Notes: a model not told the origin generated them from the letters alone. DNA of 40,682 nt from an uncultured Rickettsiales bacterium (GCA_964520155.1 CAZFOM010000002.1:1703-42384), one strand, 5' to 3'. Shown: positions 2,255 to 35,859, counted from the stretch's first letter. A program made the numbers and translations.

Positions 2255-2286
2255 GGTTGATGGTCAATAGTTGATGGTTGATAGGA
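2255..2286. repeat. heptanucleotide tandem repeat (TGGTTGA-type) filling the hpt/lysA convergent spacer
   Basis: gggttga tggtcaa tagttga tggttga tagg. The same family occurs at 6275-6306 and 9373-9411. Confidence 0.8.
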
Positions 2287-5718: not shown

Positions 5719-6603
5719 TTACGACCACACAAACCGCTCGCACACATACTGCGCACAAACTTCACATTCGATCAGTATGGATTCGGTTTTTTGTAAGTAA
5801 GTTGGGTCATCGGGTGTTCCCACTTCGGCAGCAAGCACCCCGCCCGTCACCAGCATCGAATCTATATTCATGCGATTCGCTCCGGCAATATCCGTGCGTG
5901 GGCTATCACCGATCGCGAGTATCTTGCTTCGAGGAATTCCACGAAGCCGCCGCAAACATTCTTCATATACCAGCAGATGCGGTTTGCCATAATAGATCAC
6001 CTCGCCGCCACGACGCTCATACTCCGCCGCAATCACCCCCGCACAGGCTACTCGCTCACCCGATTGACGCACCACTTCCCTATCCGGATTGATGCAGTGC
6101 ATCGGTAACTTGTTTATTAAACACTCATTCAAAAATGGTTCGATCTCTCGCATCGGCTGGTGATCTACCGCAAAGTGTGACACCAGTGCAAAATGTGCTT
6201 TTGTTGCATCATCTGTCTCCACATAGCCGAGGTCTTTGATGATTTGACGATCTTTTTCAAGGCCGAGATAGAGATAGTTGATGGTTGATGGTTGATGGTT
6301 GATAGGAAGAGCTTGCCCATCCATTCTCTCTTTCAACACCTGATATGCCGCTTCGCCGGAAGTCAGGATCTGATCATACAGTTCGCGGGCAATGCCCATG
6401 GCGTGCATCGCCTCCACCACCACACTCACTCGGCGCGGGGCGTTGGATAGTAGGATGGTTTTCCTACCTGCTTCTTTCAATTTCGTGAGGCACTCCAACA
6501 CGCCCGCATAGGGCTTCTGCCCATCATGAATCACCCCCCATAGATCGAGAATGAAGGCGTCATAGTGTGGGACAAGTTCGGAAATGGAGTGGATGTACTG
6601 CAT
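5719..6603 (-). CDS. HAD-superfamily class IIA hydrolase (TIGR01459-like)
   Basis: YDAFILDLWGVIHDG (DxD-type nucleophile motif), LLSNAPR, GDSPRTDIAGA. The start is set at MQYIHSI (6603). The ORF-track extension to 6783 is a translation of a palindromic repeat element. Confidence 0.8.
   Translation of the reverse strand: MQYIHSISELVPHYDAFILDLWGVIHDGQKPYAGVLECLTKLKEAGRKTILLSNAPRRVSVVVEAMHAMGIARELYDQILTSGEAAYQVLKERMDGQALPINHQPSTINYLYLGLEKDRQIIKDLGYVETDDATKAHFALVSHFAVDHQPMREIEPFLNECLINKLPMHCINPDREVVRQSGERVACAGVIAAEYERRGGEVIYYGKPHLLVYEECLRRLRGIPRSKILAIGDSPRTDIAGANRMNIDSMLVTGGVLAAEVGTPDDPTYLQKTESILIECEVCAQYVCERFVWS
6275..6306. repeat. heptanucleotide tandem repeat tagttga(tggttga)3tagg inside the HAD hydrolase CDS
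   Basis: Read in frame on the minus strand it gives ...PINHQPSTINY.... Same family as 2255-2286 and 9373-9411. Confidence 0.8.
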
Positions 6604-6618
6604 GAAAGACCTTATCTC

Positions 6619-6750
6619 GTCATCGCGAGCAATAGCTAGATGGTTTAACCTGTCATGCCGCACTTGTTGCGGCATCCAGCCGGATCCCGCAATGAATGCG
6701 GGATGACATAGAAAACTGGATCGCCACACAACTGCGCCGCTCGCAATGAC
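6619..6750. repeat. composite nested palindromic repeat element ('GTCATCGCGAGC ... CGCTCGCAATGAC' outer arms with two inner hairpin modules)
   Basis: The outer arms at 6619-6630 and 6738-6750 are reverse complements. Inner hairpins are gtcatgccgcacttgttgcggcatcc (6652-6677) and ggatcccgcaatgaatgcgggatgac (6682-6707). Related copies lie at 11104-11208, 11803-11890 and 12209-12318. Confidence 0.8.
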
Positions 6751-6793
6751 GAAACTTAATATCAGCTTTCGCTGGTATGACAACTAGTAAGGC

Positions 6794-7684
6794 TTATCGC
6801 GCCTGACTGCTTGGTGTTTCTCCCCACCCTATTCTGGTGGTGTGTTTGGTTCTTTTGGGAACATTGACTGGATCAATGGAAGTGACTTCATCTGAAAAAT
6901 TGATGCGTACATTCCCACATCCAAACCGCCCATCGCTATTAGCGCGAGGTTCTGGATGACTCAACATAAGCTCCAGACTCCCTCGCCTCCATTGCCATTT
7001 CGTTTTTCCAAGCGTCACTCGTGACTTATGCTTGTCATCCGGCGCTAAATTTTCTACGCGATCATCATCCGAATGGCTGAGTGCAGATCCCGCCAACTCG
7101 TTAGGTAATTGCACCAGTTTCATACCACCCTGTTCTGCCCGTTTGCAGAGATTATCGTCATCCCCACCCCAGGCAGAATATGCTTCATCATATCCGGTCA
7201 GTGCTTCAAAGCATTCACGCATCATCGCGATTCTTCCAGTAACACTAGGAAGGGGTTTACGATTTAATGTAGTCAAATAGTGTATAGGATTTGTTCGCGA
7301 TCGGCCAATGATGCTATTCGGATTTTTGGTGAATACCTCGTTCAGGTATCTTGAAAAATTTGGAACCACCATATTATCCGCATCGAGATTGCAGAGTATA
7401 TCCCCCGTTGCCAGCCGGTGTGCCATGTTTTTGGCGTGTGCCATTTTGAAATGCTCACCGTCATCGTACCGTGCATAGCGGATACGGCCTGATGCGACTT
7501 CCTTGGAATAATTCTGTTTGATCCACTCTGCCAGACCATCTTCACTGGTGTAATCGAGCACCACAAACTCGACATCGGGATTATCTTTTTCTGCTTCCAA
7601 GTTGTGCGGAAGGGTTTGCTGCAGATGATGCAGACGGCCTTTGCAGGTGGTGCAGTAAGAAACCTTCACAGCATAACTCCCCAA
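6794..7684 (-). CDS. GT-A fold glycosyltransferase (family 2 / galactosyltransferase-C-like)
   Basis: VSYCTTCKGR..HL, VVLDY, DxD-like NLDADN, and a GYDE..SAWGGDDDNL motif like the WGGEDDD of beta-1,4-GalT-type enzymes. Confidence 0.55.
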   Translation of the reverse strand: MGSYAVKVSYCTTCKGRLHHLQQTLPHNLEAEKDNPDVEFVVLDYTSEDGLAEWIKQNYSKEVASGRIRYARYDDGEHFKMAHAKNMAHRLATGDILCNLDADNMVVPNFSRYLNEVFTKNPNSIIGRSRTNPIHYLTTLNRKPLPSVTGRIAMMRECFEALTGYDEAYSAWGGDDDNLCKRAEQGGMKLVQLPNELAGSALSHSDDDRVENLAPDDKHKSRVTLGKTKWQWRRGSLELMLSHPEPRANSDGRFGCGNVRINFSDEVTSIDPVNVPKRTKHTTRIGWGETPSSQAR

Positions 7685-7725
7685 TTGAGGGTGAGTTTAG
7701 CAGGCTAGGGTTAAAAAGCCCTTAA

Positions 7726-9372
7726 CTAAGCCGCTTTGGATAGCTCGCCACCCAGCGCTTTTGCAATTAAATCAATCGTTTCCTTCTTCCCATACAAGGC
7801 AATAAACGATCCCATGCGTGGGCCGGTGGGCTGGCCGAGCAGGATTTCATAAAGCGCTTTGAACCAGAGCTTGAGATCGGTAAATGCGTGGCGTTTACCG
7901 ATCTCATAGACTTCGGTTTGGAGTTCTTCTGCGGACGCGGTATCCGGTGCCGACGTGAGATAGGTAGAGAGATCTCTCAGCGCGCTACGCTCCTGCTCGG
8001 TCGGTGCGCGGTAGTTTTTCGCAGGCTTCACAAAGTCGTTGTAATAATTGACGGCGTACCCCGCGAGCTTATCAAGCATCGGACATGTGGCCGGATTCGC
8101 CTGAGGATTATAGCGCGAAATAAATCCCCACAACACCGATTTATCGGTTGGGTTACAGGCAGCGGCGATGTTGAGCAGCAGGCTAAACCGGATATTGGCT
8201 TCTGATGCCGGCGGCTGTCCGCGATGAATGTGGTAAGCAGGATTTTCAAGTAAGCTGCCAGCTGTCAGCTTTGAGCTGTCAGGTTTTTCATTTCCCGATC
8301 CTGGAAGCTGGAAGCTGGAAGCTGAAAGCTCATTATATTTCTCCAAATGCGCCTGATACTCATCCACCGCTTGCGGGATCACGTCGAAATAGAGGCGCTT
8401 CGCGGTGCGGGGTTTCTGGAACATGTAATAGGCAAGAGACTCGGTCGGGGCGTAGCGTAGCCATTCATCAATCGTGAGGCCGTTGCCTTTGGATTTGGAA
8501 ATTTTCTCGCCTTTCTCATCGAGAAATAACTCGAACATCATCTGCTGCGGCGGTTTGCCCCCAGCGATTTTGCAGATCGCATCATAGAGTTTGGCGGAGA
8601 CGAGATGATCCTTACCATACATCTCGTAATCCACGTCCAGCGCTGCCCAGCGCATCCCCATATCGGGCTTCCACTGGAGTTTGCAATGCCCGCCGGTCAC
8701 CGGCACCGTCTCGTGTGAACCGTCTTCTTCCTGATAGGTAATCGTGCCTTTTGCTGCATCATGAGAAATAACGGGCGCGAGCAGCACTTTGCCAGAACGC
8801 GGTGAGACTGGCAGGAACGGTGAATAAGTTGAGGCGCGTTCTTCCCCCAGCGTCGGCAACATCACCTGCATCACCTTGTCGTAGTTCTTGAGAATGGTGA
8901 GCAGTGCCTGATCAAATTCACCGGCTTTGTACGTCGCAGTCGAGCTTTTGAATTCATACTCGAAACCGAATTCATCGAGGAACGCGCGCAGCCGCGCATT
9001 CATGTGATGGCCGAAGCTCTCATGCGTGCCGAACGGATCGGGAATCGAGGTGAGCGGTTTGCCGATATTGGCAGCAATCATATCCGCATTCGGTAAATTC
9101 TCCGGCACCTTACGAAGCCCATCCATGTCATCGGAAAAGCAAATGAGCTTTGTTGGAAATCCTGTCATTGCCTCAAACGCGCGACGCACCATCGTCGTAC
9201 GCGCCACCTCACCAAACGTGCCGATATGCGGTAAGCCTGAGGGGCCGTAGCCGGTTTCAAACAGCACATAGCCCTTATCCGGCAACTTGCCGCCGATGCG
9301 GTCAAGTAATGCGACGGCTTCCACAAACGGCCAGGCTTTGGCGTTACGATATAGTTCGGGAGATAAAGTCAT
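7726..9372 (-). CDS. lysK: lysine--tRNA ligase, class I
   Basis: 548 aa, PSGLPHIGTFGEV (HIGH-like) and KISKSKGNG (KMSKS) motifs. Class I LysRS is typical of alphaproteobacteria. Confidence 0.95.
   Translation of the reverse strand: MTLSPELYRNAKAWPFVEAVALLDRIGGKLPDKGYVLFETGYGPSGLPHIGTFGEVARTTMVRRAFEAMTGFPTKLICFSDDMDGLRKVPENLPNADMIAANIGKPLTSIPDPFGTHESFGHHMNARLRAFLDEFGFEYEFKSSTATYKAGEFDQALLTILKNYDKVMQVMLPTLGEERASTYSPFLPVSPRSGKVLLAPVISHDAAKGTITYQEEDGSHETVPVTGGHCKLQWKPDMGMRWAALDVDYEMYGKDHLVSAKLYDAICKIAGGKPPQQMMFELFLDEKGEKISKSKGNGLTIDEWLRYAPTESLAYYMFQKPRTAKRLYFDVIPQAVDEYQAHLEKYNELSASSFQLPGSGNEKPDSSKLTAGSLLENPAYHIHRGQPPASEANIRFSLLLNIAAACNPTDKSVLWGFISRYNPQANPATCPMLDKLAGYAVNYYNDFVKPAKNYRAPTEQERSALRDLSTYLTSAPDTASAEELQTEVYEIGKRHAFTDLKLWFKALYEILLGQPTGPRMGSFIALYGKKETIDLIAKALGGELSKAA
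8253..8330. repeat. AGCT-heptad repeat element (two imperfectly complementary arms) inserted in frame in lysK
   Basis: agct[gcc]agct[gtc]agct[ttg]agct[gtc]ag, an 18-nt spacer, then ctgg a agct gga agct gga agct gaa agct. It is 78 nt = 26 codons and encodes ...LSASSFQLPGSGNEKPDSSKLTAGS.... Confidence 0.7.
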
Positions 9373-9411
9373 AGTTAGGTTGATGGTTAATGGTTGATGG
9401 TTGATGGTTTT
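9373..9411. repeat. heptanucleotide tandem repeat (TGGTTGA-type) abutting the lysK start codon
   Basis: agttag gttga tggttaa tggttga tggttga tggtttt, immediately upstream (minus-strand sense) of the lysK ATG at 9372. Confidence 0.8.
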
Positions 9412-9467
9412 TGTTCATACCAGTATTCGTCTGTCATGCTAGGATGAATCGAATGTCCCCTTAATCG

Positions 9468-9501
9468 AAGACGCGCGAATCTCTAAGACGCGCGAATCTC
9501 T
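9468..9501. repeat. perfect 17-bp tandem duplication (aagacgcgcgaatctct x2)
   Basis: 9468-9484 and 9485-9501 are identical. It lies in the AT-rich lysK / RTX-gene intergenic region. Confidence 0.9.
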
Positions 9502-9777
9502 TTTTTCATCGAACAAATGGGCTGATTGGTACCACTTTTATATTTTTAATCATTCTAAATAGTTTGGTTAACAGCCTGTATAAAAAAGCATAACATCATC
9601 ACATATATCAATTTTTCTCCTTACATTCATTTCTCAGCAGTCCATTGTTGACCCAATACTCTAACCAAATTACTCTGCGCCTCCTAATAAATTAAGTAAT
9701 TCTTAGAAAATGCGTTTCTGGAATTAACAAAAATTAAAAACACACCAACATAACACAACAACAGATGGAGAAGGACT

Positions 9778-11031
9778 ATGGCGAATATCATAGGTAGTTC
9801 AGGAAGTGATTTGCTGAACGGCACGATCAATAATGACACGATCATTGGCGGCTCCTGAGACGACTCGCTCTATGGCGGCGACGGCAACGACAGCATAAAC
9901 GGTGGTAGAGGCAGAGACCTCATCTACGCGGGATTCGGAAACGACATCATTGATGGTGGCAGCGAAGACGACGTAATTTTTGCGGAATCCGGCAATGACA
10001 CGATTGTTGGCGGCAGCGGCAATGATTTCATTTATGGAGACAGTGAAAACACGAAGCAGAATCTTGTTCTTAACGGTTCGTTTGAGATGCTGGGTTCTAG
10101 CGGCAGTGTAACGGGTTATGGTTATAGCACCCCTGTCCTTCCAGACTGGACACTCGACTCAGATCCCGCCTATGAAATGGTGAATGCCGGCTGGAATGGC
10201 ATCGCACCAAGTGATGGCACCTATTGGCTGGATATGGATGCTTCTCCGGGCAATATCAGAATATCACAGACCATCTTAGGCCCGGATGATGGCCTGTCCT
10301 ATCAACTGAGTTTTGAAGCGGCCGACTTAAATGCCGACGGCGTTTCGGCCAACAGCATTAGGGTCTACTGGGGTGGCGAATTGATAGGCTCTCTGGGTGG
10401 ATTGACCACTAACATGCTCACCTATTCGATTGAGCTAATTGGCGGCGCCGGCGATGGCTCCAACGTGCTATCGTTTGAGGCTACCGGAGATGCCGATGAT
10501 ATCGGCGCATCCCTCGACAATGTCCGCCTCTTTTCTAATGCCGATATTGATGGCAAGCATAATGATTCCATCGAAGGCGGCTCAGGCAAAGACCAAATTA
10601 CCGCTAGCGCTGGGAATGACACCGTCAATGGCGGATCCGACGACGACTTTATTAACGGCGGTACCGGCAATGATAGCCTCATGGGCGGTTCGTCCGGAGC
10701 GGATATCATCATAGGTGATTGGGGCGCTGACACGATGAACGGCGGCTCCGGAGCAGACACATTCGTCTATCGGTCGTATGAAGATTCTAACACACCAGCA
10801 CGCGACCTGATCATCGGATGGGATGCAAATGACATCTTTGATCTGGCGAACTACACTGCTTTCGACTTTGGCTTTAACAACATCGCGTTCGGCGCAGGAA
10901 GTGGAAGCACACTAGGCTACACGTATGTTTCCGGTAACACGATTATTAAAGCCGATCCATTCGTCGCGGATTTCACCATCGAACTCCAGGGCATCCACAA
11001 CCTTATCAATGCCGATTTCATCTACGTTTAA
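9778..11031 (+). pseudogene. RTX (hemolysin-type Ca2+-binding repeat) secreted protein gene interrupted by an in-frame TGA at 9856-9858; the intact downstream ORF is 10087-11031
   Basis: The ATG at 9778 is preceded by GGAGAAGG. The frame reads MANIIGSSGSDLLNGTINNDTIIGGS*DDSLYGGDGNDSINGGRGRDLIYAGFGNDIIDGG... and continues into the 10087 ORF. Central NGSFE... beta-jelly-roll-like domain. C-terminal GGxGxD repeats and a serralysin-type T1SS tail (DTFVY...D.I.G.D..D.FDL). Confidence 0.7.
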
Positions 11032-11064
11032 GACAGGCTGTATAAGTACGATTTAATGAATTAG

Positions 11065-11098
11065 GGGAGATTATCTTGATAGATAATCTCCCTTTTTT
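11065..11098 (+). terminator. rho-independent terminator of the RTX gene
   Basis: Perfect 12-bp stem gggagattatct / agataatctccc, 4-nt loop, then TTTTTT. Confidence 0.8.
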
Positions 11099-11103
11099 AT
11101 TTC

Positions 11104-11208
11104 CGTCATTGCGAGAAGCGTGAGCTCCGCGGCAATCCAAAACTTGTCTTGTCATGCCGCACTGGTTGCGGCATCCAGGGCAGACCCCGCAATAAATGCG
11201 GGGTGACA
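11104..11208. repeat. partial composite palindromic repeat element (same module order as 6619-6750, right outer arm missing)
   Basis: cgtcattgcgag..., then gtcatgccgcactggttgcggcatcc (11151-11176), then gaccccgcaataaatgcggggtgac (11184-11208). Confidence 0.75.
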
Positions 11209-11340
11209 ATTTACTTGAATACTGCGAAATAAAATGTACGATTTCAGGTAAGGTGATGTTTTTGTATCTTTAACCCGCTGACGCCATATTGCTGCGGGTA
11301 TTTTTTTGTCGTTTCATTGACAACACCCTATAATCCACTT

Positions 11341-11411
11341 AACGTGGCTTTCGAAGAGGGGCGAAGTGCGCCCAGCGAATAACAAACCTGCTGAGCGCGG
11401 GTTTTTGTTTT
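11341..11411 (+). ncRNA. candidate small RNA, unit 1 of a tandem pair
   Basis: 5' tggctttc, internal hairpin GGGCG-aagtg-CGCCC, and terminator AACCTGC-N5-GCGGGTT + U-run. A possible promoter is TTGTCG-N17-TATAAT (11306-11334). Confidence 0.25.
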
Positions 11412-11470
11412 GACTTGCTATAGAAAAAAATTAACATAGATTAACTTTGACGTCACAGCTGTATCTAAAA

Positions 11471-11545
11471 CTTGGCTTTCATTAATTGCCGTCACGAGAT
11501 TTGAGCGTTTGCTCAAATAGAACCTGCCTTTAGCGGGTTTTTTGT
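11471..11545 (+). ncRNA. candidate small RNA, unit 2 of a tandem pair
   Basis: 5' tggctttc, internal 8-bp hairpin atttgagc-gttt-gctcaaat, and the identical terminator stem AACCTGC-N5-GCGGGTT + U-run. Confidence 0.25.
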
Positions 11546-11592
11546 ACCTACTTTTTTGTAGGATTTTTTTTAACATTTAGTTCGGAGAACTG

Positions 11593-11700
11593 ATGAAGAA
11601 GCTGCTTAAGCGGCTTCGTAAAGCATTGCCTATGGTAATTGCTTTTACGAAGAACCCGCTTGTGCTGATGCTGATCAAAGAAATCTTTTTCGAAGATTAA
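11593..11700 (+). CDS. hypothetical 35-aa peptide (basic N-terminus, hydrophobic core)
   Basis: GGAGA lies 6 nt upstream of the ATG. Sequence is MKKLLKRLRKALPMVIAFTKNPLVLMLIKEIFFED, followed by a 10-bp AU-rich inverted repeat (11713-11747). There is no homology evidence. Confidence 0.2.
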   Translation: MKKLLKRLRKALPMVIAFTKNPLVLMLIKEIFFED

Positions 11701-11802
11701 TTAATCACGTCACATAAAAACCTTTTTTATTGAATATGGTTTTTATGAGGATTTGTTGCGTCTATACATTAGGATTTATCCAATAAAATAGCAACCCAAC
11801 AC

Positions 11803-11890
11803 CGTCATTGCGAGCGATAGCGAAGCAATCCAGTTCTTTCTTCATTGTTTGACTGGATTGCCGCGCTCACGTTGTTCGCTCGCAATGACG
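11803..11890. repeat. complete palindromic repeat element (cgtcattgcgagcg...aatccagt / actggatt...cgctcgcaatgacg)
   Basis: The arms are reverse complements around a T-rich loop. The element ends 2-3 nt from the GIY-YIG stop codon. Confidence 0.85.
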
Positions 11891-11892
11891 GA

Positions 11893-12183
11893 TTAGCCGG
11901 TGATTGAGTCATACAAATCCAGCCATTCCGGATTCATGGATTCAATCAACTCCAACTTCTTTTTGCGAGAACCGGCTTTAATCTGCTTTTCTCTTGTGAT
12001 GGCAGATTCCATGGTTTCGTGCATTTCGTAATATACCAATTTGTCGCAACCATATTTTTCCGTAAATCCTTTAACCAGCTTGTGTTTATGTTGGTAGACA
12101 CGGCCTACCAGATCGGAAGTGACACCCACATAGAGCGTACCGTTACGTCCACTGGCTAAAATATAAACTGCCGGATTTTTCAT
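11893..12183 (-). CDS. GIY-YIG nuclease family protein (UPF0213 / YhbQ-like, COG2827-type)
   Basis: 96 aa: VYILASGRNGTLYVGVTSDL..RV.QHK....GFT.KY....LVY.E......AI.REKQIK. Confidence 0.85.
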   Translation of the reverse strand: MKNPAVYILASGRNGTLYVGVTSDLVGRVYQHKHKLVKGFTEKYGCDKLVYYEMHETMESAITREKQIKAGSRKKKLELIESMNPEWLDLYDSITG

Positions 12184-12208
12184 ACTCTAAGTATATACAC
12201 ATTACCCT

Positions 12209-12318
12209 CCGTCATTGCGACCCCCGCGAAGGCGGGGGGAAGCAATCCAGTTCTTTCTTTTCTACAGAATTTGTTGCTTGACTGGATCGCCACGGCCTAT
12301 GGCCTCTTACCCCCGTGA
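12209..12318. repeat. palindromic repeat element, degenerate right arm, with an extra GC hairpin (ccccgcgaaggcgggg) inserted in the left arm
   Basis: ccgtcattgcga[ccccgcgaaggcgggggg]aagcaatccagttctttc...actggatcgcc.... The loop orientation matches that of 11803-11890. Confidence 0.7.
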
Positions 12319-12349
12319 CAGCCCACAACGCCTATGCTAGCTGTTTGAT

Positions 12350-16713: not shown

Positions 16714-17760
16714 GTGCGGTATTTCGGGATCATCGTTGCATTGCTATTGGGTTTGGGACTAAGCGCCTGCGCCACCCCGCACGAACAACCGTACGCGAAA
16801 AACACCCTCTCCCCCCAACTCATTGGCACGGAAACCCTCAAAACCGGCGACAATACCAAGCTGCCGATCAAGGTGTGGATGCCAGAGAAAAAACCCACCG
16901 CGATCATCGTCGCGTTGCATGGGTTCAATGATTACAGCAATGCGTTTGCAATTCCGGCAAAACGTTTAAGCGAATCGGGTGTCGGGGTGTATGCGTTTGA
17001 CCAGCGCGGATTCGGTCGCAACCCGCAGGCGGGATTGTGGGCAGGCACGCCAAACTTGACCGCCGATCTTGCCGATATGGTGGAAGCCGTTAAAAGAGTA
17101 CACCCAAACACACCTCTGTATATTTTGGGCGAAAGCATGGGCGGGGCCGTTGCAATTTCCGCGCTGGCACAACCTGACTTCCCGAAGGTGAATGGACTGA
17201 TTCTGGTTGCTCCCGCTGTGTGGGGTGATGATACGATGAACAGTTTTTATCGTTTGTCACTGTGGGTGCTCGCGCACATGGTTCCGGATAACACTGCAAC
17301 CGGACGCGATCTCAGGATTCTCGCCTCGGACAATATCCCTATGCTGCGCGAAATGGGGAAGGATCCGTATGTTCTGAAATCCACACGTATCGACGCGGTT
17401 TACGGCATGGTGGGGCTGATGGATACGGCCTATACCCACGCCGAAAATCTCGATGTTCCTGTATTGCTCTTGTATGGTGCGAAAGATCAGGTGATCCCGC
17501 CGCTGCCGATCAAAGAGGTGTCGAAGAAGCTGCCGCAAACAGACAAAGTGGCGCTCTATCCGCTTGGGTATCACATGTTGCTGCGCGACTTAAACGGACA
17601 CCTGGTCACGAACGATATTCTTCACTGGATCCGCTCCAAACACACGCCCCTGCCTTCGGGATACGAAATGGATCCACAGCGCTTTGTTGCAAAAAAGGCA
17701 TTGCACGAGGAAGTCGTGAACTCTACGGTGAGTGAGACGGTTCGCCCTAACAAGCGATGA
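16714..17760 (+). CDS. alpha/beta hydrolase (lysophospholipase/monoglyceride-lipase-like) lipoprotein
   Basis: GESMGG nucleophile elbow and HGFNDYS. The lipobox GLSAC follows VRYFGIIVALLLGLG. The GTG at 16714 with an upstream AGGA is preferred over the ORF-track TTG at 16630. Confidence 0.75.
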   Translation: MRYFGIIVALLLGLGLSACATPHEQPYAKNTLSPQLIGTETLKTGDNTKLPIKVWMPEKKPTAIIVALHGFNDYSNAFAIPAKRLSESGVGVYAFDQRGFGRNPQAGLWAGTPNLTADLADMVEAVKRVHPNTPLYILGESMGGAVAISALAQPDFPKVNGLILVAPAVWGDDTMNSFYRLSLWVLAHMVPDNTATGRDLRILASDNIPMLREMGKDPYVLKSTRIDAVYGMVGLMDTAYTHAENLDVPVLLLYGAKDQVIPPLPIKEVSKKLPQTDKVALYPLGYHMLLRDLNGHLVTNDILHWIRSKHTPLPSGYEMDPQRFVAKKALHEEVVNSTVSETVRPNKR

Positions 17761-17960
17761 GGTGAGAGCAATCTCACCGTAAAGGGAATCAGGTGCGTGA
17801 ATATCCTTAAGATACTAACAAATCCTGAGCTGTGCCCGCAACTGTAATCAGCGAGTGTGTCTGCACTATGCCACTGGGACGCCGGATCCAACAATACGGA
17901 ACCGGAACACTGGGAAGGCCGCAGACAAGCGATGACCTGAGAGTCAGGAGACCTGCCGTC
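17761..17960 (+). promoter_or_regulatory. cobalamin (AdoCbl) riboswitch
   Basis: AAAGGGAATCAGGTGCG, GCTGTGCCCGCAACTGTAA, GCCACTGGGA, GGGAAGGC and the B12 box AGTCAGGAGACCTGCC. It lies directly upstream of a TonB-dependent receptor. Confidence 0.85.
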
Positions 17961-18060
17961 CATGTGTCACGCGAGCTGGTGTTGAACGGGGTCATTCAGT
18001 CAGTCACGGATTGTCCATACGCGGTGACATGAACACGAACACGACGTATGGAGTCTATTC

Positions 18061-19872
18061 ATGAAACTATCTTTATCCGCTGCATTGCTATGCAGCGCCC
18101 TGCCGCTTGCGGCGTCTGCTTCTCCCCTCTCGCTGGTGATCACCCCCACTCGAACCGAAACGCCGATCGCGCAGATCGGCAGCAGCGTGTCGGTGCTCAC
18201 TTCGGCTGATCTCGAGCGGCTGCAACTTCCAACCGTGCGCGACGCACTCGCGCATGTGCCAGGCGTGTCGCTTGCCAGTAACGGAGGCACCGGACAAACC
18301 ACTTCCGTGTTTATCCGCGGCGCCAAATCCGAACACACGTTGGTGCTGGTGGATGGCGTGCCGGTAAACGATCCGTCCTCTACTACCAATTCCTATGATT
18401 TTGGACGACTATCCACCAGTCACGTTGAGCGGATCGAGGTGTTGCGCGGAAGCCAGAGCGTGCTGTATGGGCCTGAAGCGATTGGCGGCGTGATCAATAT
18501 CATCACCAAACGCGGTACGGATAAACCGGCATTTAACTCGAGCGCCGAATATGGATCAGATAACAGCTATCAGCTTTCAACCGGCGCGCGCGGTGCAGTA
18601 GATCAGCTTCGCTACTCCGCCAATGTGACACATCGCCATACCGACGGCGTATCCGCGTTCAACTCACGGCGCGGTGGACTGGAAGAAGATGGCGATGAAA
18701 CCACGACTTACTCTGGCCGTCTGGATGCCGATATCTCCGACGCCCTGCGCGCCTATACGACCGGACGTTACACGCGCGGCTATACGGAGTTCGACGATTT
18801 CGGCACCGATGCCGATAACGATGCCAAGTCCAATGAGCTTAGTTGGCGCGGGGCGGGTGTGGCAACGCTTTTAGATGGAAAATGGTCGCAGGAACTCGGA
18901 CTTTCGTATCTCAACACCGGACGCTCCAGCACCTCGTCCTTTGGCACATTTCGCTATCAGGGAAAGCGCGTGGGTGCTGACTGGGTACACACGCTTACCC
19001 CCGTCCAGAATCATGTGATCACAGCAGGGCTTGAAACCGCGGAAGAAACGTTTTCTACCGATTTTGATACCAGCCGTTCAGTGCGCAATCATGCGATCTT
19101 TGTTCAGGATCAGTGGAACGTCGTGGATTTGCTCTATGTGACTACGGGTGCGCGACTGGACAAGCACGACGAATATGGCAGCGAATGGACATACCGCATC
19201 GCTCCCTCTTACCTGATTGAATCCACTGGTACGCGACTCAAGGCGAGCATTGCCAACGGTTTCAAAGCCCCTTCCCTGTTTCAACTATTCTCATTTTTTG
19301 GTAATGCTGCACTCAAGCCGGAAAACAGCGATAGTTTCGATGCAGGATTCGAGCAATCGCTGCTCAATGGATCGGTGCAATTCGGTGCTACCTATTTTCG
19401 TCTTACAGTGGATGATCTGATTGATTATGATTTTGCCGCTAACCGGTATATCAATACCGGAAAAACGCAATCCCAGGGGGTTGAGAGCTTCATCCGCTAT
19501 GCGCCTATGCCCTCGCTGACACTCGCACTCAACCATACCTACACGAAGGCGGAAGACCGCATCACGAAAGCGGATCTGCTACGCCGTCCGAAACATACAT
19601 TCTCTGGTGATGTAACCTGGCAACCGCGCGACGATATTCGGCTCGGCGTGAATGCCACCTATCAGGGAGTGCGCGAAGATATCAATCTGGCGTTCAACCG
19701 CACGCGCATGGGGGGATATCCCCTGCTCAATGTCACGGGCGACTGGAATCTTAATTCCCGTTTCACGCTGTATGGCCGTCTGGAAAATCTGCTCGATCGG
19801 GAATACGAAAATGTCTTCAGCTACGGCGCACGCGGACTTTCCGCCTTTGCCGGTATCCGCGCGGAGTATTAA
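18061..19872 (+). CDS. btuB: TonB-dependent outer-membrane receptor, vitamin B12 transporter BtuB-like
   Basis: Signal peptide, plug domain (ITPTRTETP.....SVSVLT..DLER), C-terminal aromatic residue (...GIRAEY). It follows a B12 riboswitch. Confidence 0.85.
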   Translation: MKLSLSAALLCSALPLAASASPLSLVITPTRTETPIAQIGSSVSVLTSADLERLQLPTVRDALAHVPGVSLASNGGTGQTTSVFIRGAKSEHTLVLVDGVPVNDPSSTTNSYDFGRLSTSHVERIEVLRGSQSVLYGPEAIGGVINIITKRGTDKPAFNSSAEYGSDNSYQLSTGARGAVDQLRYSANVTHRHTDGVSAFNSRRGGLEEDGDETTTYSGRLDADISDALRAYTTGRYTRGYTEFDDFGTDADNDAKSNELSWRGAGVATLLDGKWSQELGLSYLNTGRSSTSSFGTFRYQGKRVGADWVHTLTPVQNHVITAGLETAEETFSTDFDTSRSVRNHAIFVQDQWNVVDLLYVTTGARLDKHDEYGSEWTYRIAPSYLIESTGTRLKASIANGFKAPSLFQLFSFFGNAALKPENSDSFDAGFEQSLLNGSVQFGATYFRLTVDDLIDYDFAANRYINTGKTQSQGVESFIRYAPMPSLTLALNHTYTKAEDRITKADLLRRPKHTFSGDVTWQPRDDIRLGVNATYQGVREDINLAFNRTRMGGYPLLNVTGDWNLNSRFTLYGRLENLLDREYENVFSYGARGLSAFAGIRAEY

Positions 19873-35740: not shown

Positions 35741-35822
35741 TGTCATCCTGAACTTGTTTCAGGATCCATCTAGCAACACTGCTTGATGTCATTATGGATG
35801 CTGAAACAAGTTCAGCATGACA
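35741..35822. repeat. double-hairpin palindromic element (tgtcatcctgaacttgtttcaggatcc ... ggatgctgaaacaagttcagcatgaca)
   Basis: Each ~26-nt arm is itself an 8-bp hairpin. The two arms are inverted copies of each other with 2 mismatches. The element starts 2 nt after the phosphatase stop codon. Confidence 0.8.
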
Positions 35823-35823
35823 C

Positions 35824-35859
35824 AGCTTTCTGAAACCTGAAAGCTGACACCTGACAGCT
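35824..35859. repeat. AGCT-heptad repeat, same family as the lysK insertion
   Basis: agctttc tgaaacc tgaaagc tgacacc tgacagc t. It shares cctgacagct and aaagctgaca words with 8253-8330 (opposite strand) and abuts the ABC-F stop codon. Confidence 0.7.

What the first reader, a model, noticed from the sequence alone, without database searches (positions are those of the whole stretch)
11803..12318. GIY-YIG nuclease gene bracketed by two same-orientation copies of the dispersed palindromic element: a possible RAYT-like repeat/nuclease partnership
The 96-aa GIY-YIG (YhbQ/UPF0213-type) gene is flanked by two copies of the same palindromic element. One (11803-11890) lies 2-3 nt from its stop codon. 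The other (12209-12318) lies ~25 nt upstream of its start. The loops show the two copies are in the same orientation (both ...aatccagttctttct...). The same element family is scattered through the window (6619-6750, 11104-11208). REP sequences are known to be mobilised by a single-copy, REP-flanked tyrosine transposase (RAYT). A small structure-specific GIY-YIG nuclease flanked by the hairpins it might recognise is an analogous arrangement that I have not seen formally described. I also recall, unverified, that many database GIY-YIG proteins of this size end in peptides such as ...LAMT/...RNDG. Those are translations of ...ctcgcaatgac..., which would suggest the association is widespread.
Basis: partly seen in the sequence, partly recalled or inferred. 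Interest (0 to 1): 0.65.

Follow-up and report, generated by a model that had tools for sequence, protein, structure and literature searches.

The report
Ssn hairpin-cutting nuclease with its repeats
The small GIY-YIG gene and the palindromic repeats around it are a real pair, but an already published one: an Ssn single-stranded-DNA nuclease with its cognate hairpin repeats (Chenal et al., Nat Commun 2025), so this is a further example, not a new kind of system.

Summary
A 96-aa GIY-YIG gene (11893-12183, minus strand) lies between two same-orientation copies of a composite palindromic element (11803-11892 and 12209-12320). Related elements sit at 6618-6751, 11104-11208 and 35741-35822. Each element is built from oriented units of the form YGTC, palindrome, CCAG.

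This is the architecture of the Neisseria NTS and the wider 'Ssn-related motifs' (SRM). Chenal et al. 2025 (PMC11893778) showed that these hairpins are bound by SsnA, a 94-aa GIY-YIG nuclease, which cuts single-stranded DNA just 5' of the hairpin.

- The window protein is 63% identical to the Neisseria gonorrhoeae SsnA orthologue (E=2e-43) and keeps the three residues that paper mutated.
- In 80 genomes with homologues, unit density is 9.7/kb within 100 nt of the gene against 0.11-0.17/kb at 2-10 kb.
- 71 of 80 loci have a unit within 500 nt, and 50 of 80 have one on both sides.

The paper already draws the RAYT/REP analogy, so the idea is supported but not new. Small additions:

- The flanking units are a 'TTGCGAG' subtype that the published SRM search string does not match.
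- Close homologues sit in different genomic contexts.
- A syntenic relative lacks the whole segment.

Mobilisation by the nuclease remains unproven.

The parts
11893..12183 (-). ssn gene: a 96-aa single-domain GIY-YIG nuclease of the Ssn family, with Y7, Y18 and E65 matching SsnA Y6, Y17 and E64
   Evidence: Pfam E=5e-16. 63% identity to N. gonorrhoeae SsnA (E=2e-43). AF2 pLDDT 95.5.
11803..11892 (.). Composite palindromic element E1, made of two inverted SRM-like units around a 19-nt spacer, immediately 3' of ssn
   Evidence: Hairpin of -33.8 kcal/mol, z=-10.3.
11803..11833 (+). Unit U1: CGTC-ATTGC-(13 nt)-GCAAT-CCAG, TTGCGAG subtype
11853..11890 (-). Unit U2: CGTC-ATTGC-(20 nt)-GCAAT-CCAG on the ssn coding strand. 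Its 5' C lies 2 nt after the stop codon, so the predicted cut (about 3 nt 5' of the unit) falls at the stop codon. This is an inference.
   Evidence: Cut position inferred from the oligo lengths given in PMC11893778.
12209..12320 (.). Composite element E2, in the same orientation as E1, 26 nt 5' of the ssn start. The right arm has decayed.
12210..12250 (+). Unit U3: CGTC-ATTGC-(23-nt loop holding an extra GC hairpin)-GCAAT-CCAG
12282..12320 (-). Unit U4, degenerate: TGTCAC...GGCGATCCAG
   Evidence: Not found by the strict scan.
11104..11208 (.). SRM cluster of three units: 11104-11140 (+, TTGCGAG type), 11150-11178 (+, GCCGCA type) and 11180-11208 (-, CCCGCA type, which matches the published SRM string)
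6618..6751 (.). Nested SRM composite. Outer TTGCGAG-type arms at 6618-6650 (+, truncated) and 6716-6751 (-). Inner units at 6651-6679 (+) and 6680-6708 (-, which matches the published SRM string).
35741..35822 (.). Inverted pair of SRM-like units between convergent genes: TGTCATCCTGAACTTGTTTCAGGATCCAT (+) and TGTCATGCTGAACTTGTTTCAGCATCCAT (-)
   Evidence: The same subtype lies next to ssn homologues in L017 and L056.

Best explanation
**What it is.** The gene encodes an Ssn-family enzyme: a single-domain GIY-YIG, site-specific single-stranded-DNA endonuclease. The flanking palindromes are arrays of its cognate Ssn-related motifs (SRM).

**Anatomy of a unit.** Each unit is oriented: Y-GTC, then a palindrome that starts with AT and ends with AT, then C-CAG. 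Two inverted units make up the roughly 90-110-nt 'palindromic element'.

**How it works (by homology with the characterised SsnA proteins).**
- When DNA is single-stranded (incoming transforming DNA, replication or repair intermediates), a unit folds into a hairpin.
- The protein binds the stem together with the C just 3' of it.
- It reads the GTC just 5' of the stem.
- It hydrolyses the strand about 3 nt further 5'.
- It does not act on duplex DNA, RNA or the complementary strand.

**Likely consequence (inferred).** Single-stranded DNA is cut at SRM sites. This would modulate recombination and horizontal-transfer events that cross SRM-marked intergenic regions.

**Shown here:** family membership, motif architecture, and the statistical gene-repeat linkage.

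**Inferred:** the activity and cut sites of this particular protein, and its cellular role in this unidentified organism.
For: **Homology and fold**
- 63% identity over 91 of 96 residues to the 94-aa N. gonorrhoeae SsnA orthologue, E=2e-43.
- Y7, Y18 and E65 align with the Y6, Y17 and E64 that PMC11893778 showed to be needed for cleavage.
- Pfam GIY-YIG, and a confident AF2 GIY-YIG fold.

**Motif**
- The units share the NTS architecture CGTCAT...ATCCAG.
- I collected 339 TTGCGAG-type palindromes from homologue loci with no constraint on the flanks. The three bases 5' are GTC in 96-97%, and the base 3' is C in 98%.
- Those are the positions the paper found critical for cleavage and for binding.

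**Linkage**
- Across 80 loci from diverse phyla, unit density is 9.7/kb within 100 nt of the gene against 0.11-0.17/kb at 2-10 kb.
- 71 of 80 loci have at least one unit within 500 nt, and 50 of 80 have one on both sides.
- The same scan recovers 16 canonical NTS copies around gonococcal ssnA, which serves as a positive control.
- The 89%-identical homologue is likewise bracketed by two direct copies of a roughly 100-nt composite element.

**Published support:** biochemistry and genetics in PMC11893778.
Against: - No activity data exist for this protein or for any Ssn paired with the TTGCGAG subtype.
- The published degenerate SRM string, as printed, does not match the units that flank this gene.
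- E2 is half decayed.
- The window holds at least four unit subtypes but only one ssn gene, so some units may belong to other paralogues or be orphans.
- The transformation-restriction role was shown only in N. meningitidis. It is unknown whether this organism is naturally competent.
- CDD cd10448 assignment could not be run.
Confidence: 0.85

Rival explanations
1. SRM-ssn-SRM is an autonomous selfish element, RAYT/IS-like or homing-like. Ssn cleavage at the flanking hairpins would mobilise the cassette and seed MITE-like SRM copies around the genome. It does not exclude the best explanation, because it concerns origin and spread rather than biochemistry.
For: - The gene is bracketed by same-orientation composite elements here and in L081.
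- The closest homologues (89% and 75% identity) sit in unrelated gene neighbourhoods.
- The syntenic relative L088 (74-83% nucleotide identity) has lysS about 105 nt from the Gate-domain gene. It lacks the whole 9410-12349 segment and has no ssn or SRM on its fetched 9.2 kb.
- Proteins stay 60-76% identical across Alpha-, Beta- and Gammaproteobacteria, Rickettsiales, Planctomycetota, Nitrospinota and a Dehalococcoidia MAG, which suggests horizontal spread.
- The paper raises the same hypothesis.
Against: - GIY-YIG nucleases hydrolyse DNA and form no covalent intermediate, so they cannot carry out strand transfer as HUH-Y1 RAYTs do (established enzymology).
- The nearest unit shows no orientation bias on either side of the gene: 36 plus and 29 minus downstream, 29 plus and 30 minus upstream. 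Defined IS ends would show one.
- No target-site duplication was seen.
- The L088 difference is a roughly 2.9-kb multi-gene segment, not a clean cassette-sized empty site.
- Homologues are found almost entirely on chromosomes or large replicons: 33 of 34 PLSDB hits are non-mobilisable, and there are no close phage hits.
Confidence: 0.3
2. The palindromes are generic REP-like terminators or mRNA stabilisers, and their position next to the GIY-YIG gene is coincidental.
For: - All copies are intergenic, mostly at gene 3' ends or between convergent genes.
- E1 sits directly after the ssn stop codon and would form a strong RNA hairpin.
Against: - Units are enriched 60-90-fold next to ssn homologues in 80 independent genomes.
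- The GTC and C flanks are conserved and oriented, which a simple terminator does not need.
- No U-tract follows the elements.
- Direct binding and cleavage were shown for homologous pairs.
Confidence: 0.03
3. The gene is a housekeeping YhbQ/UPF0213-type nuclease or a free-standing group I intron-type homing endonuclease, unrelated to the repeats.
For: - Weak hits to BH0048 (UPF0213; E=1e-3; Foldseek top hit).
- A weak hit to TIGR01453, group I intron endonuclease (E=1.3e-3, 18.8 bits against a cutoff of 56).
Against: - The protein is far closer to SsnA: 63% identity, E=2e-43.
- It has no DNA-binding domain beyond the 96-aa catalytic core.
- No intron, tRNA or Rfam group I match lies nearby.
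Confidence: 0.02

Closest known systems
SsnA / NTS and the Ssn-SRM family (GIY-YIG cd10448; Chenal et al., Nat Commun 2025, PMC11893778)
   Same: - A single-domain GIY-YIG protein of about 95 aa, 63% identical to the gonococcal SsnA orthologue, with the same catalytic residues.
- Oriented hairpin units of the form YGTC, palindrome, CCAG.
- A unit starts 2 nt after the stop codon in the window, in L081 and in N. gonorrhoeae.
- Repeats lie on both sides of the gene, are intergenic, and are dispersed elsewhere in the genome.
   Different: - The palindrome core is ATTGC(GAGCG...)GCAAT with a 12-23-nt loop. In Neisseria it is ATTCCCGC(N4)GCGGGAAT.
- The printed SRM search string does not match this core.
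- The stretch after the catalytic Glu reads AGSRKK here (the [AGS]G[ST]R motif occurs in 111 of 120 clade members). In the NTS-type clade it reads KW.R.W (116 of 120).
- Units are mostly arranged as inverted pairs that form composite palindromes of about 100 nt.
- The host is an unidentified environmental bacterium, and no functional data exist for it.
RAYT / REP-BIME (IS200/IS605-like HUH Y1 transposases; Nunvar 2010, Ton-Hoang 2012, as cited in PMC11893778)
   Same: - A single small nuclease gene is flanked by the dispersed hairpin repeats it recognises as single-stranded DNA.
- The repeats cluster into larger mosaic structures.
   Different: - The catalytic fold and chemistry are unrelated: a hydrolytic GIY-YIG nuclease against an HUH tyrosine enzyme that forms a covalent intermediate.
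- There is no evidence here of cleavage-and-joining, and no fixed end orientation.
Neisseria dRS3 / NIME mosaic elements
   Same: - Short inverted repeats bracket variable spacers in intergenic regions.
- They lie at the borders of strain-variable segments. In the window, segments 6608-7725 and 9410-12349 are absent from relative L088 and each has an SRM composite at one edge.
   Different: - The repeat sequence and the host differ.
- Whether the window's elements serve as phage or IS integration sites, as dRS3 does, was not examined.
UPF0213 / YhbQ-like GIY-YIG proteins (BH0048, PDB 1zg2)
   Same: A stand-alone GIY-YIG domain of about 95-105 aa with the same fold (Foldseek top hit).
   Different: - Sequence identity is only about 29% (E=1e-3).
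- To my knowledge no repeat partnership is known for that family.

Membership tests
Ssn nuclease family (cd10448; PMC11893778) | Single-domain GIY-YIG protein under 150 aa (SsnA is 94 aa) | tested here: met
   96 aa. Pfam PF01541 covers residues 5-76. The AF2 model is one compact domain with pLDDT 95.5.
Ssn nuclease family (cd10448; PMC11893778) | BLASTP hit to Neisseria SsnA with E<1e-10 and at least 75% coverage | tested here: met
   63% identity over 91 aa, E=2e-43 pairwise. tblastn gives E=1e-29 against 7.3 Gb. The comparator is the 94-aa N. gonorrhoeae orthologue (L168 2495-2779, NTS-flanked, with Y6, Y17 and E64). The N. meningitidis CAX49033.1 sequence itself was not available.
Ssn nuclease family (cd10448; PMC11893778) | Catalytic residues corresponding to SsnA Y6, Y17 and E64 | tested here: met
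   Y7, Y18 and E65 are invariant in alignments A1 and A4.
Ssn nuclease family (cd10448; PMC11893778) | Top CDD assignment is cd10448 (GIY-YIG_unchar_3) | not testable with these tools
   No CDD/rpsblast is available. NCBIfam has no specific model; the only hit is a sub-threshold TIGR01453.
Ssn nuclease family (cd10448; PMC11893778) | At least one SRM within 500 bp on both sides, using the published string HGTCWYN(0-2)YYVSBRHN(0-5)WNVSBRGN(0-2)RNCYNB | tested here: not met
   The string, as printed in the Methods, matches only 6680-6708 and 11180-11208 in the window. Neither lies within 500 nt of the gene. It cannot match the TTGCGAG core.
Ssn nuclease family (cd10448; PMC11893778) | Flanked on both sides by oriented hairpin units with the NTS architecture (GTC, palindrome, C) | tested here: met
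   U1 and U2 lie 3' of the gene and U3 (plus the degenerate U4) lies 5'. The same holds for 50 of 80 homologue loci. GTC and C are conserved at 96-98% without being imposed.
Ssn nuclease family (cd10448; PMC11893778) | Site-specific cleavage of ssDNA only, just 5' of the motif | not testable with these tools
   This needs purified protein and labelled oligonucleotides.
SRM / NTS repeats | Over-represented, intergenic and dispersed | tested here: met
   11 units against 2.2 +/- 1.5 in shuffles. All 10 convincing units are intergenic. Only a 40-kb window could be tested, not the genome.
RAYT / REP system | The protein is an HUH-Y1 (IS200/IS605 TnpA-like) transposase | tested here: not met
   The only Pfam family is GIY-YIG, and the fold matches GIY-YIG nucleases.
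UPF0213 / YhbQ family | Closer to UPF0213 members than to other GIY-YIG subfamilies | tested here: not met
   BH0048 scores E=1e-3 at about 29% identity. SsnA scores E=2e-43 at 63% identity. E. coli YhbQ itself was not compared.

The most novel reading that the evidence does not exclude
The TTGCGAG-type units and the 'AGSRKK' Ssn clade may form a distinct, very widespread specificity class that the published SRM search string misses. The SRM-ssn-SRM cassette may also be, or recently have been, a mobile unit. Its spread would rely on ssDNA nicking followed by host repair or recombination, in a homing-like rather than transposase-like way. That would leave composite SRM palindromes at the borders of strain-variable gene islands, such as window segments 6608-7725 and 9410-12349.
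Probability: 0.3. Interest if true: 0.6.

Novelty: new member of a known kind. Interest (0 to 1): 0.3.

Why it matters
That is a good sanity check on the scan, but it is not a discovery.

The locus adds a little to what is known:
- It shows that the most common partner of this Ssn clade, across many phyla, is a TTGCGAG-type hairpin that the published search pattern does not capture. Censuses made with that pattern probably undercount SRMs.
- It points to a short protein stretch (residues 70-75) that differs between clades with different hairpin types. This is a concrete target for specificity-swap experiments, which matter for the proposed use of Ssn enzymes as programmable ssDNA cutters.
- It gives context evidence that bears on the open question of whether these cassettes move. 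Close homologues sit in different neighbourhoods, a syntenic relative lacks the segment, and the flanking units show no fixed orientation.

Tried and rejected
1. **Published SRM string on the window and on 80 loci.** It found only 2 window units and hits in 4 of 80 loci. I checked by hand that it cannot match the TTGCGAG core, and replaced it with a structural scan. That scan was validated on gonococcal NTS and by an unconstrained flank test.
2. **Finding Neisseria SsnA by a second protein search, seeded with an NTS-type homologue (L057).** No named Neisseria protein appeared in the top 120. The search did expose the C-terminal element-derived tails. The sequence was finally obtained from gonococcal chromosomes that PLSDB lists as plasmids.
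3. **Looking for a fixed orientation of the nearest units, as expected for IS ends.** None was found. The orientation of the elements relative to the gene in L081 versus the window was ambiguous and is not used.
4. **Empty-site search with the neighbouring Gate-domain gene in metagenomes.** Only one close relative (L088) turned up. The difference is a 2.9-kb multi-gene segment, and the HAD-lysS spacer of L088 may hold a decayed unit, so there is no clean empty site.
5. **Co-clustering of protein clades with unit subtypes among the 83 loci.** ATTGC and ATCGC stems co-occur as the two arms of one element, and too few NTS-type loci were present for a test.
6. **Rfam, tRNA and promoter/terminator scans around the locus.** Nothing relevant to the finding.
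7. **Literature search for the repeat sequence itself.** It returned only unrelated primers.
8. **Rough taxonomic placement of the window through PLSDB.** Uninformative, with at most 45% identity.

Full report
**1. What is in the sequence**

The ORF at 11893-12183 on the minus strand encodes a 96-aa protein. Its only Pfam match is the GIY-YIG catalytic domain (PF01541, E=5e-16, residues 5-76). No second copy is present in the window.

Two nucleotides after the stop codon (11893-11895) lies an element of about 90 nt, E1 (11803-11892). As single-stranded DNA it folds into a nearly perfect long hairpin of -33.8 kcal/mol (z=-10.3 against shuffles).

Twenty-six nucleotides upstream of the ATG (12181-12183) lies a second element, E2 (12209-12320). 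It shares with E1 the asymmetric string AAGCAATCCAGTTCTTTCTT and aligns with it in the same orientation. Its right arm has decayed, so the fold of the whole element is unremarkable (z=-1.8).

The 12-mer CGTCATTGCGAG, allowing one mismatch, occurs six times against 0.47 expected. A further one lies at 35741-35822.

**2. Anatomy of the repeats**

Each 'palindromic element' is a composite of shorter oriented units of one design: Y-GTC, then a palindrome beginning with AT and ending with AT, then C-CAG.

Examples:
- CGTC-ATTGC-GAGCGATAGCGAA-GCAAT-CCAG (U1, 11803-11833, plus strand)
- TGTC-ATGCCGCA-CTTGT-TGCGGCAT-CCAG (6651-6679)
- TGTC-ATCCTGAA-CTTGT-TTCAGGAT-CCAT (35741-35769)

E1 is U1 plus an inverted U2 (11853-11890, minus strand). 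E2 is U3 (12210-12250, plus strand) plus a degenerate inverted U4.

A scan for 'GTCA, perfect stem of at least 5 bp, loop of 3-24 nt, then C' finds 11 units in the window. Dinucleotide shuffles give 2.2 +/- 1.5, with a maximum of 6 in 200. The ten convincing units are all intergenic.

**3. This is a published system**

A literature search returned Chenal et al., Nat Commun 2025 (PMC11893778). The paper reports the following.
- It defines the Neisseria NTS as CGTCATTCCCGCGMAVGCGGGAATCYRG, and generalises it to 'Ssn-related motifs' (SRM).
- 71% of loci encoding homologues of the 94-aa GIY-YIG protein SsnA carry an SRM, and 42% carry one on both sides.
- 81% of genomes with more than 200 SRMs encode an Ssn.
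- SsnA from four species binds the hairpin only as single-stranded DNA and cuts a few nucleotides 5' of it.
- Cleavage depends on the three bases 5' of the palindrome. Binding depends on the C just 3' of it.
- In N. meningitidis this activity restricts the integration of NTS-bearing transforming DNA.
- The Discussion notes that the NTS-ssnA-NTS architecture looks like an insertion sequence, and draws the IS200/IS605-RAYT-REP/BIME parallel.

**4. Is the window locus a member?**

PLSDB contains whole N. gonorrhoeae chromosomes labelled as plasmids. tblastn of the window protein hits one at 62.6% identity, E=1e-29.

The ORF there (L168 2495-2779) has these properties:
- It is 94 aa and has Y6, Y17 and E64, the residues mutated in the paper.
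- It is embedded in 16 canonical NTS copies.
- One of those copies starts 2 nt after its stop codon.

Pairwise BLASTP gives 63% identity over 91 residues, E=2e-43. That is well inside the paper's criterion of E<1e-10 with at least 75% coverage. Window residues Y7, Y18 and E65 align with the three catalytic residues.

An AF2 model is confident (pLDDT 95.5) and has a GIY-YIG fold. The nearest solved structures are BH0048 (UPF0213), EF2693, Slx1 and the UvrC N-terminal domain. No Ssn structure is in the PDB copy.

CDD assignment to cd10448 could not be run.

**5. Independent test of the gene-repeat linkage**

I fetched 80 loci from 80 species-representative genomes. They encode proteins 60-76% identical to the window protein and come from Alpha-, Beta- and Gammaproteobacteria, Rickettsia, Legionellales, Ca. 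Kuenenia, Nitrospina, a Dehalococcoidia MAG and others.

| Distance from the gene | Unit density |
|---|---|
| first 100 nt | 9.7/kb |
| 100-250 nt | 2.9/kb |
| 2-10 kb | 0.11-0.17/kb |

- 71 of 80 loci have a unit within 500 nt, and 50 of 80 have one on both sides.
- The median distance is 17 nt from the stop codon and 63 nt from the start.

The dominant unit is GTCATTGCGAGCGnAGCGAAGCAATC, the same subtype that flanks the window gene.

To avoid circularity I also collected 339 A(T/C)(T/C)GCGAG...GC(A/G)(A/G)T palindromes with no constraint on their flanks. The three 5' bases are GTC in 96-97%, and the 3' base is C in 98%. These are the positions the paper found functionally critical.

**6. 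What differs from the published description**

- *The search string misses this subtype.* The printed degenerate SRM string does not match the TTGCGAG subtype. It hits two other units in the window and only 4 of the 80 loci. The paper's main text contains no TTGCGAG-type sequence. I could not see its supplementary tables, so I cannot say that the authors never met this subtype.
- *A clade-specific protein stretch.* The stretch after the catalytic Glu differs by clade. [AGS]G[ST]R occurs in 111 of 120 close homologues of the window protein. KW.R.W occurs in 116 of 120 members of the NTS-type clade, and also in Neisseria, L057 and L073, whose flanks carry NTS-type units. This is a candidate specificity determinant. 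It rests on two clades only, so it is confounded by phylogeny.
- *Element-derived tails.* In the NTS-type clade, 114 of 120 database proteins have C-terminal extensions, and 104 of those contain translated repeat (...VVPAQAGTQ...LDSRIRGNDE). In the window's clade such extensions are rare and mostly N-terminal mis-starts.

**7. Mobility**

Evidence for:
- The 89%-identical homologue (L081/L082) lies between a methyltransferase gene and hemB. It is bracketed by two roughly 100-nt composite elements in direct orientation.
- The 75%-identical homologue (L084) lies between thiC and a carbonic anhydrase gene, with an element on one side only.
- The window gene lies between an RTX-repeat gene and a Gate-domain gene.
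- The syntenic relative L088 (74-83% nucleotide identity) has lysS about 105 nt from the Gate-domain gene, so window 9410-12349 is absent. It also lacks 6608-7725. Each window-specific segment has an SRM composite at one edge.
- L088 has no ssn and no convincing unit in its fetched 9.2 kb.

Evidence against a RAYT/IS-like mechanism:
- GIY-YIG enzymes are hydrolytic and cannot rejoin DNA.
- The nearest units show no orientation bias on either side of the gene.
- I saw no target duplications.
- The L088 difference is not cassette-sized.
- Homologues are essentially chromosomal.

Mobility of the cassette is plausible (about 0.3) but unproven. If it is real, it more likely works through nick-stimulated recombination than through transposase chemistry.

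**8. Mechanism proposed for this locus**

When DNA containing U1-U4, or the other units, becomes single-stranded, each unit folds. Ssn binds the stem together with the 3' C, reads the 5' GTC, and hydrolyses the strand about 3 nt upstream. That offset comes from the 37-nt and 28-nt substrates described in the paper.

For U2, which lies on the coding strand, the predicted cut falls at the ssn stop codon. For U1 and U3 it falls at the outer-left edges of E1 and E2 on the plus strand. These positions are inferences.

The cellular effect is probably fragmentation of ssDNA intermediates at SRM-marked intergenic sites, which would modulate recombination or horizontal transfer. This role was shown only in N. 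meningitidis.

**9. Verdict**

The locus is a new member of a known kind, with a repeat subtype that the published search pattern misses.

- Interest: 0.3.
- Confidence that this is an Ssn/SRM pair: 0.85.

Noticed in passing
P0121-P0240 (homologues of the L057 protein); L057 241-765: In the NTS-type Ssn clade, 114 of 120 database proteins are 105-168 aa long because the ORF reads on into the downstream repeat. 104 of them have tails such as VVPAQAGTQ...LDSRIRGNDE, always in the same frame. It is unclear whether these tails are real or stop-codon/annotation artefacts.
   Followed up: partly
window 6608-7725 and 9410-12349, compared with L088 2233-2320 and 3907-4000: Two window segments are absent from a syntenic relative (74-83% nucleotide identity). 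One holds a GT2 glycosyltransferase gene. The other holds an RTX-repeat gene, small ORFs and ssn. Each has an SRM composite at one edge, reminiscent of dRS3-bordered variable regions in Neisseria.
   Followed up: partly
window 9779-11031: An RTX calcium-binding-repeat gene appears to be interrupted by an in-frame stop near 9856 (ggctccTGAgac). The long ORF restarts at 10087. It may be a pseudogene or a sequencing error.
   Followed up: no
window 11306-11404, 11410-11545 and 11594-11701: The gene-poor spacer next to ssn holds two sigma-70-like promoter plus intrinsic-terminator mini-units, which could be small RNAs. It also holds a 35-aa basic/hydrophobic ORF (MKKLLKRLRKALPMVIAFTKNPLVLMLIKEIFFED) preceded by GGAG. 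There is no Rfam match.
   Followed up: no
window 2256-2286, 6277-6307 and 9379-9409: A dispersed GTTGATG-heptamer repeat family (GTTGATGGTTGATGGTTGATGG...). One copy lies directly upstream of the class I lysyl-tRNA synthetase start codon, and one lies inside the HAD-hydrolase ORF.
   Followed up: no
window 17721-17974 (+): A cobalamin riboswitch (RF00174, 95.5 bits) upstream of the 603-aa ORF at 18061-19872.
   Followed up: no
L168 = NZ_CP119140.1 1879781-1885053 (PLSDB): PLSDB lists 2.17-Mb N. gonorrhoeae chromosomes as 'plasmids' with almost no annotation. This was useful here as a source of the SsnA orthologue and of 16 NTS copies within 1.6 kb around it.
   Followed up: yes
window 35823-35859 and 8253-8310: Next to the SRM pair at 35741-35822 there is an extra hairpin and an AGCTGTCAG-rich stretch. 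That stretch is inverted-repeat related (70-83%) to a sequence inside the lysS coding region. The significance is unknown.
   Followed up: no
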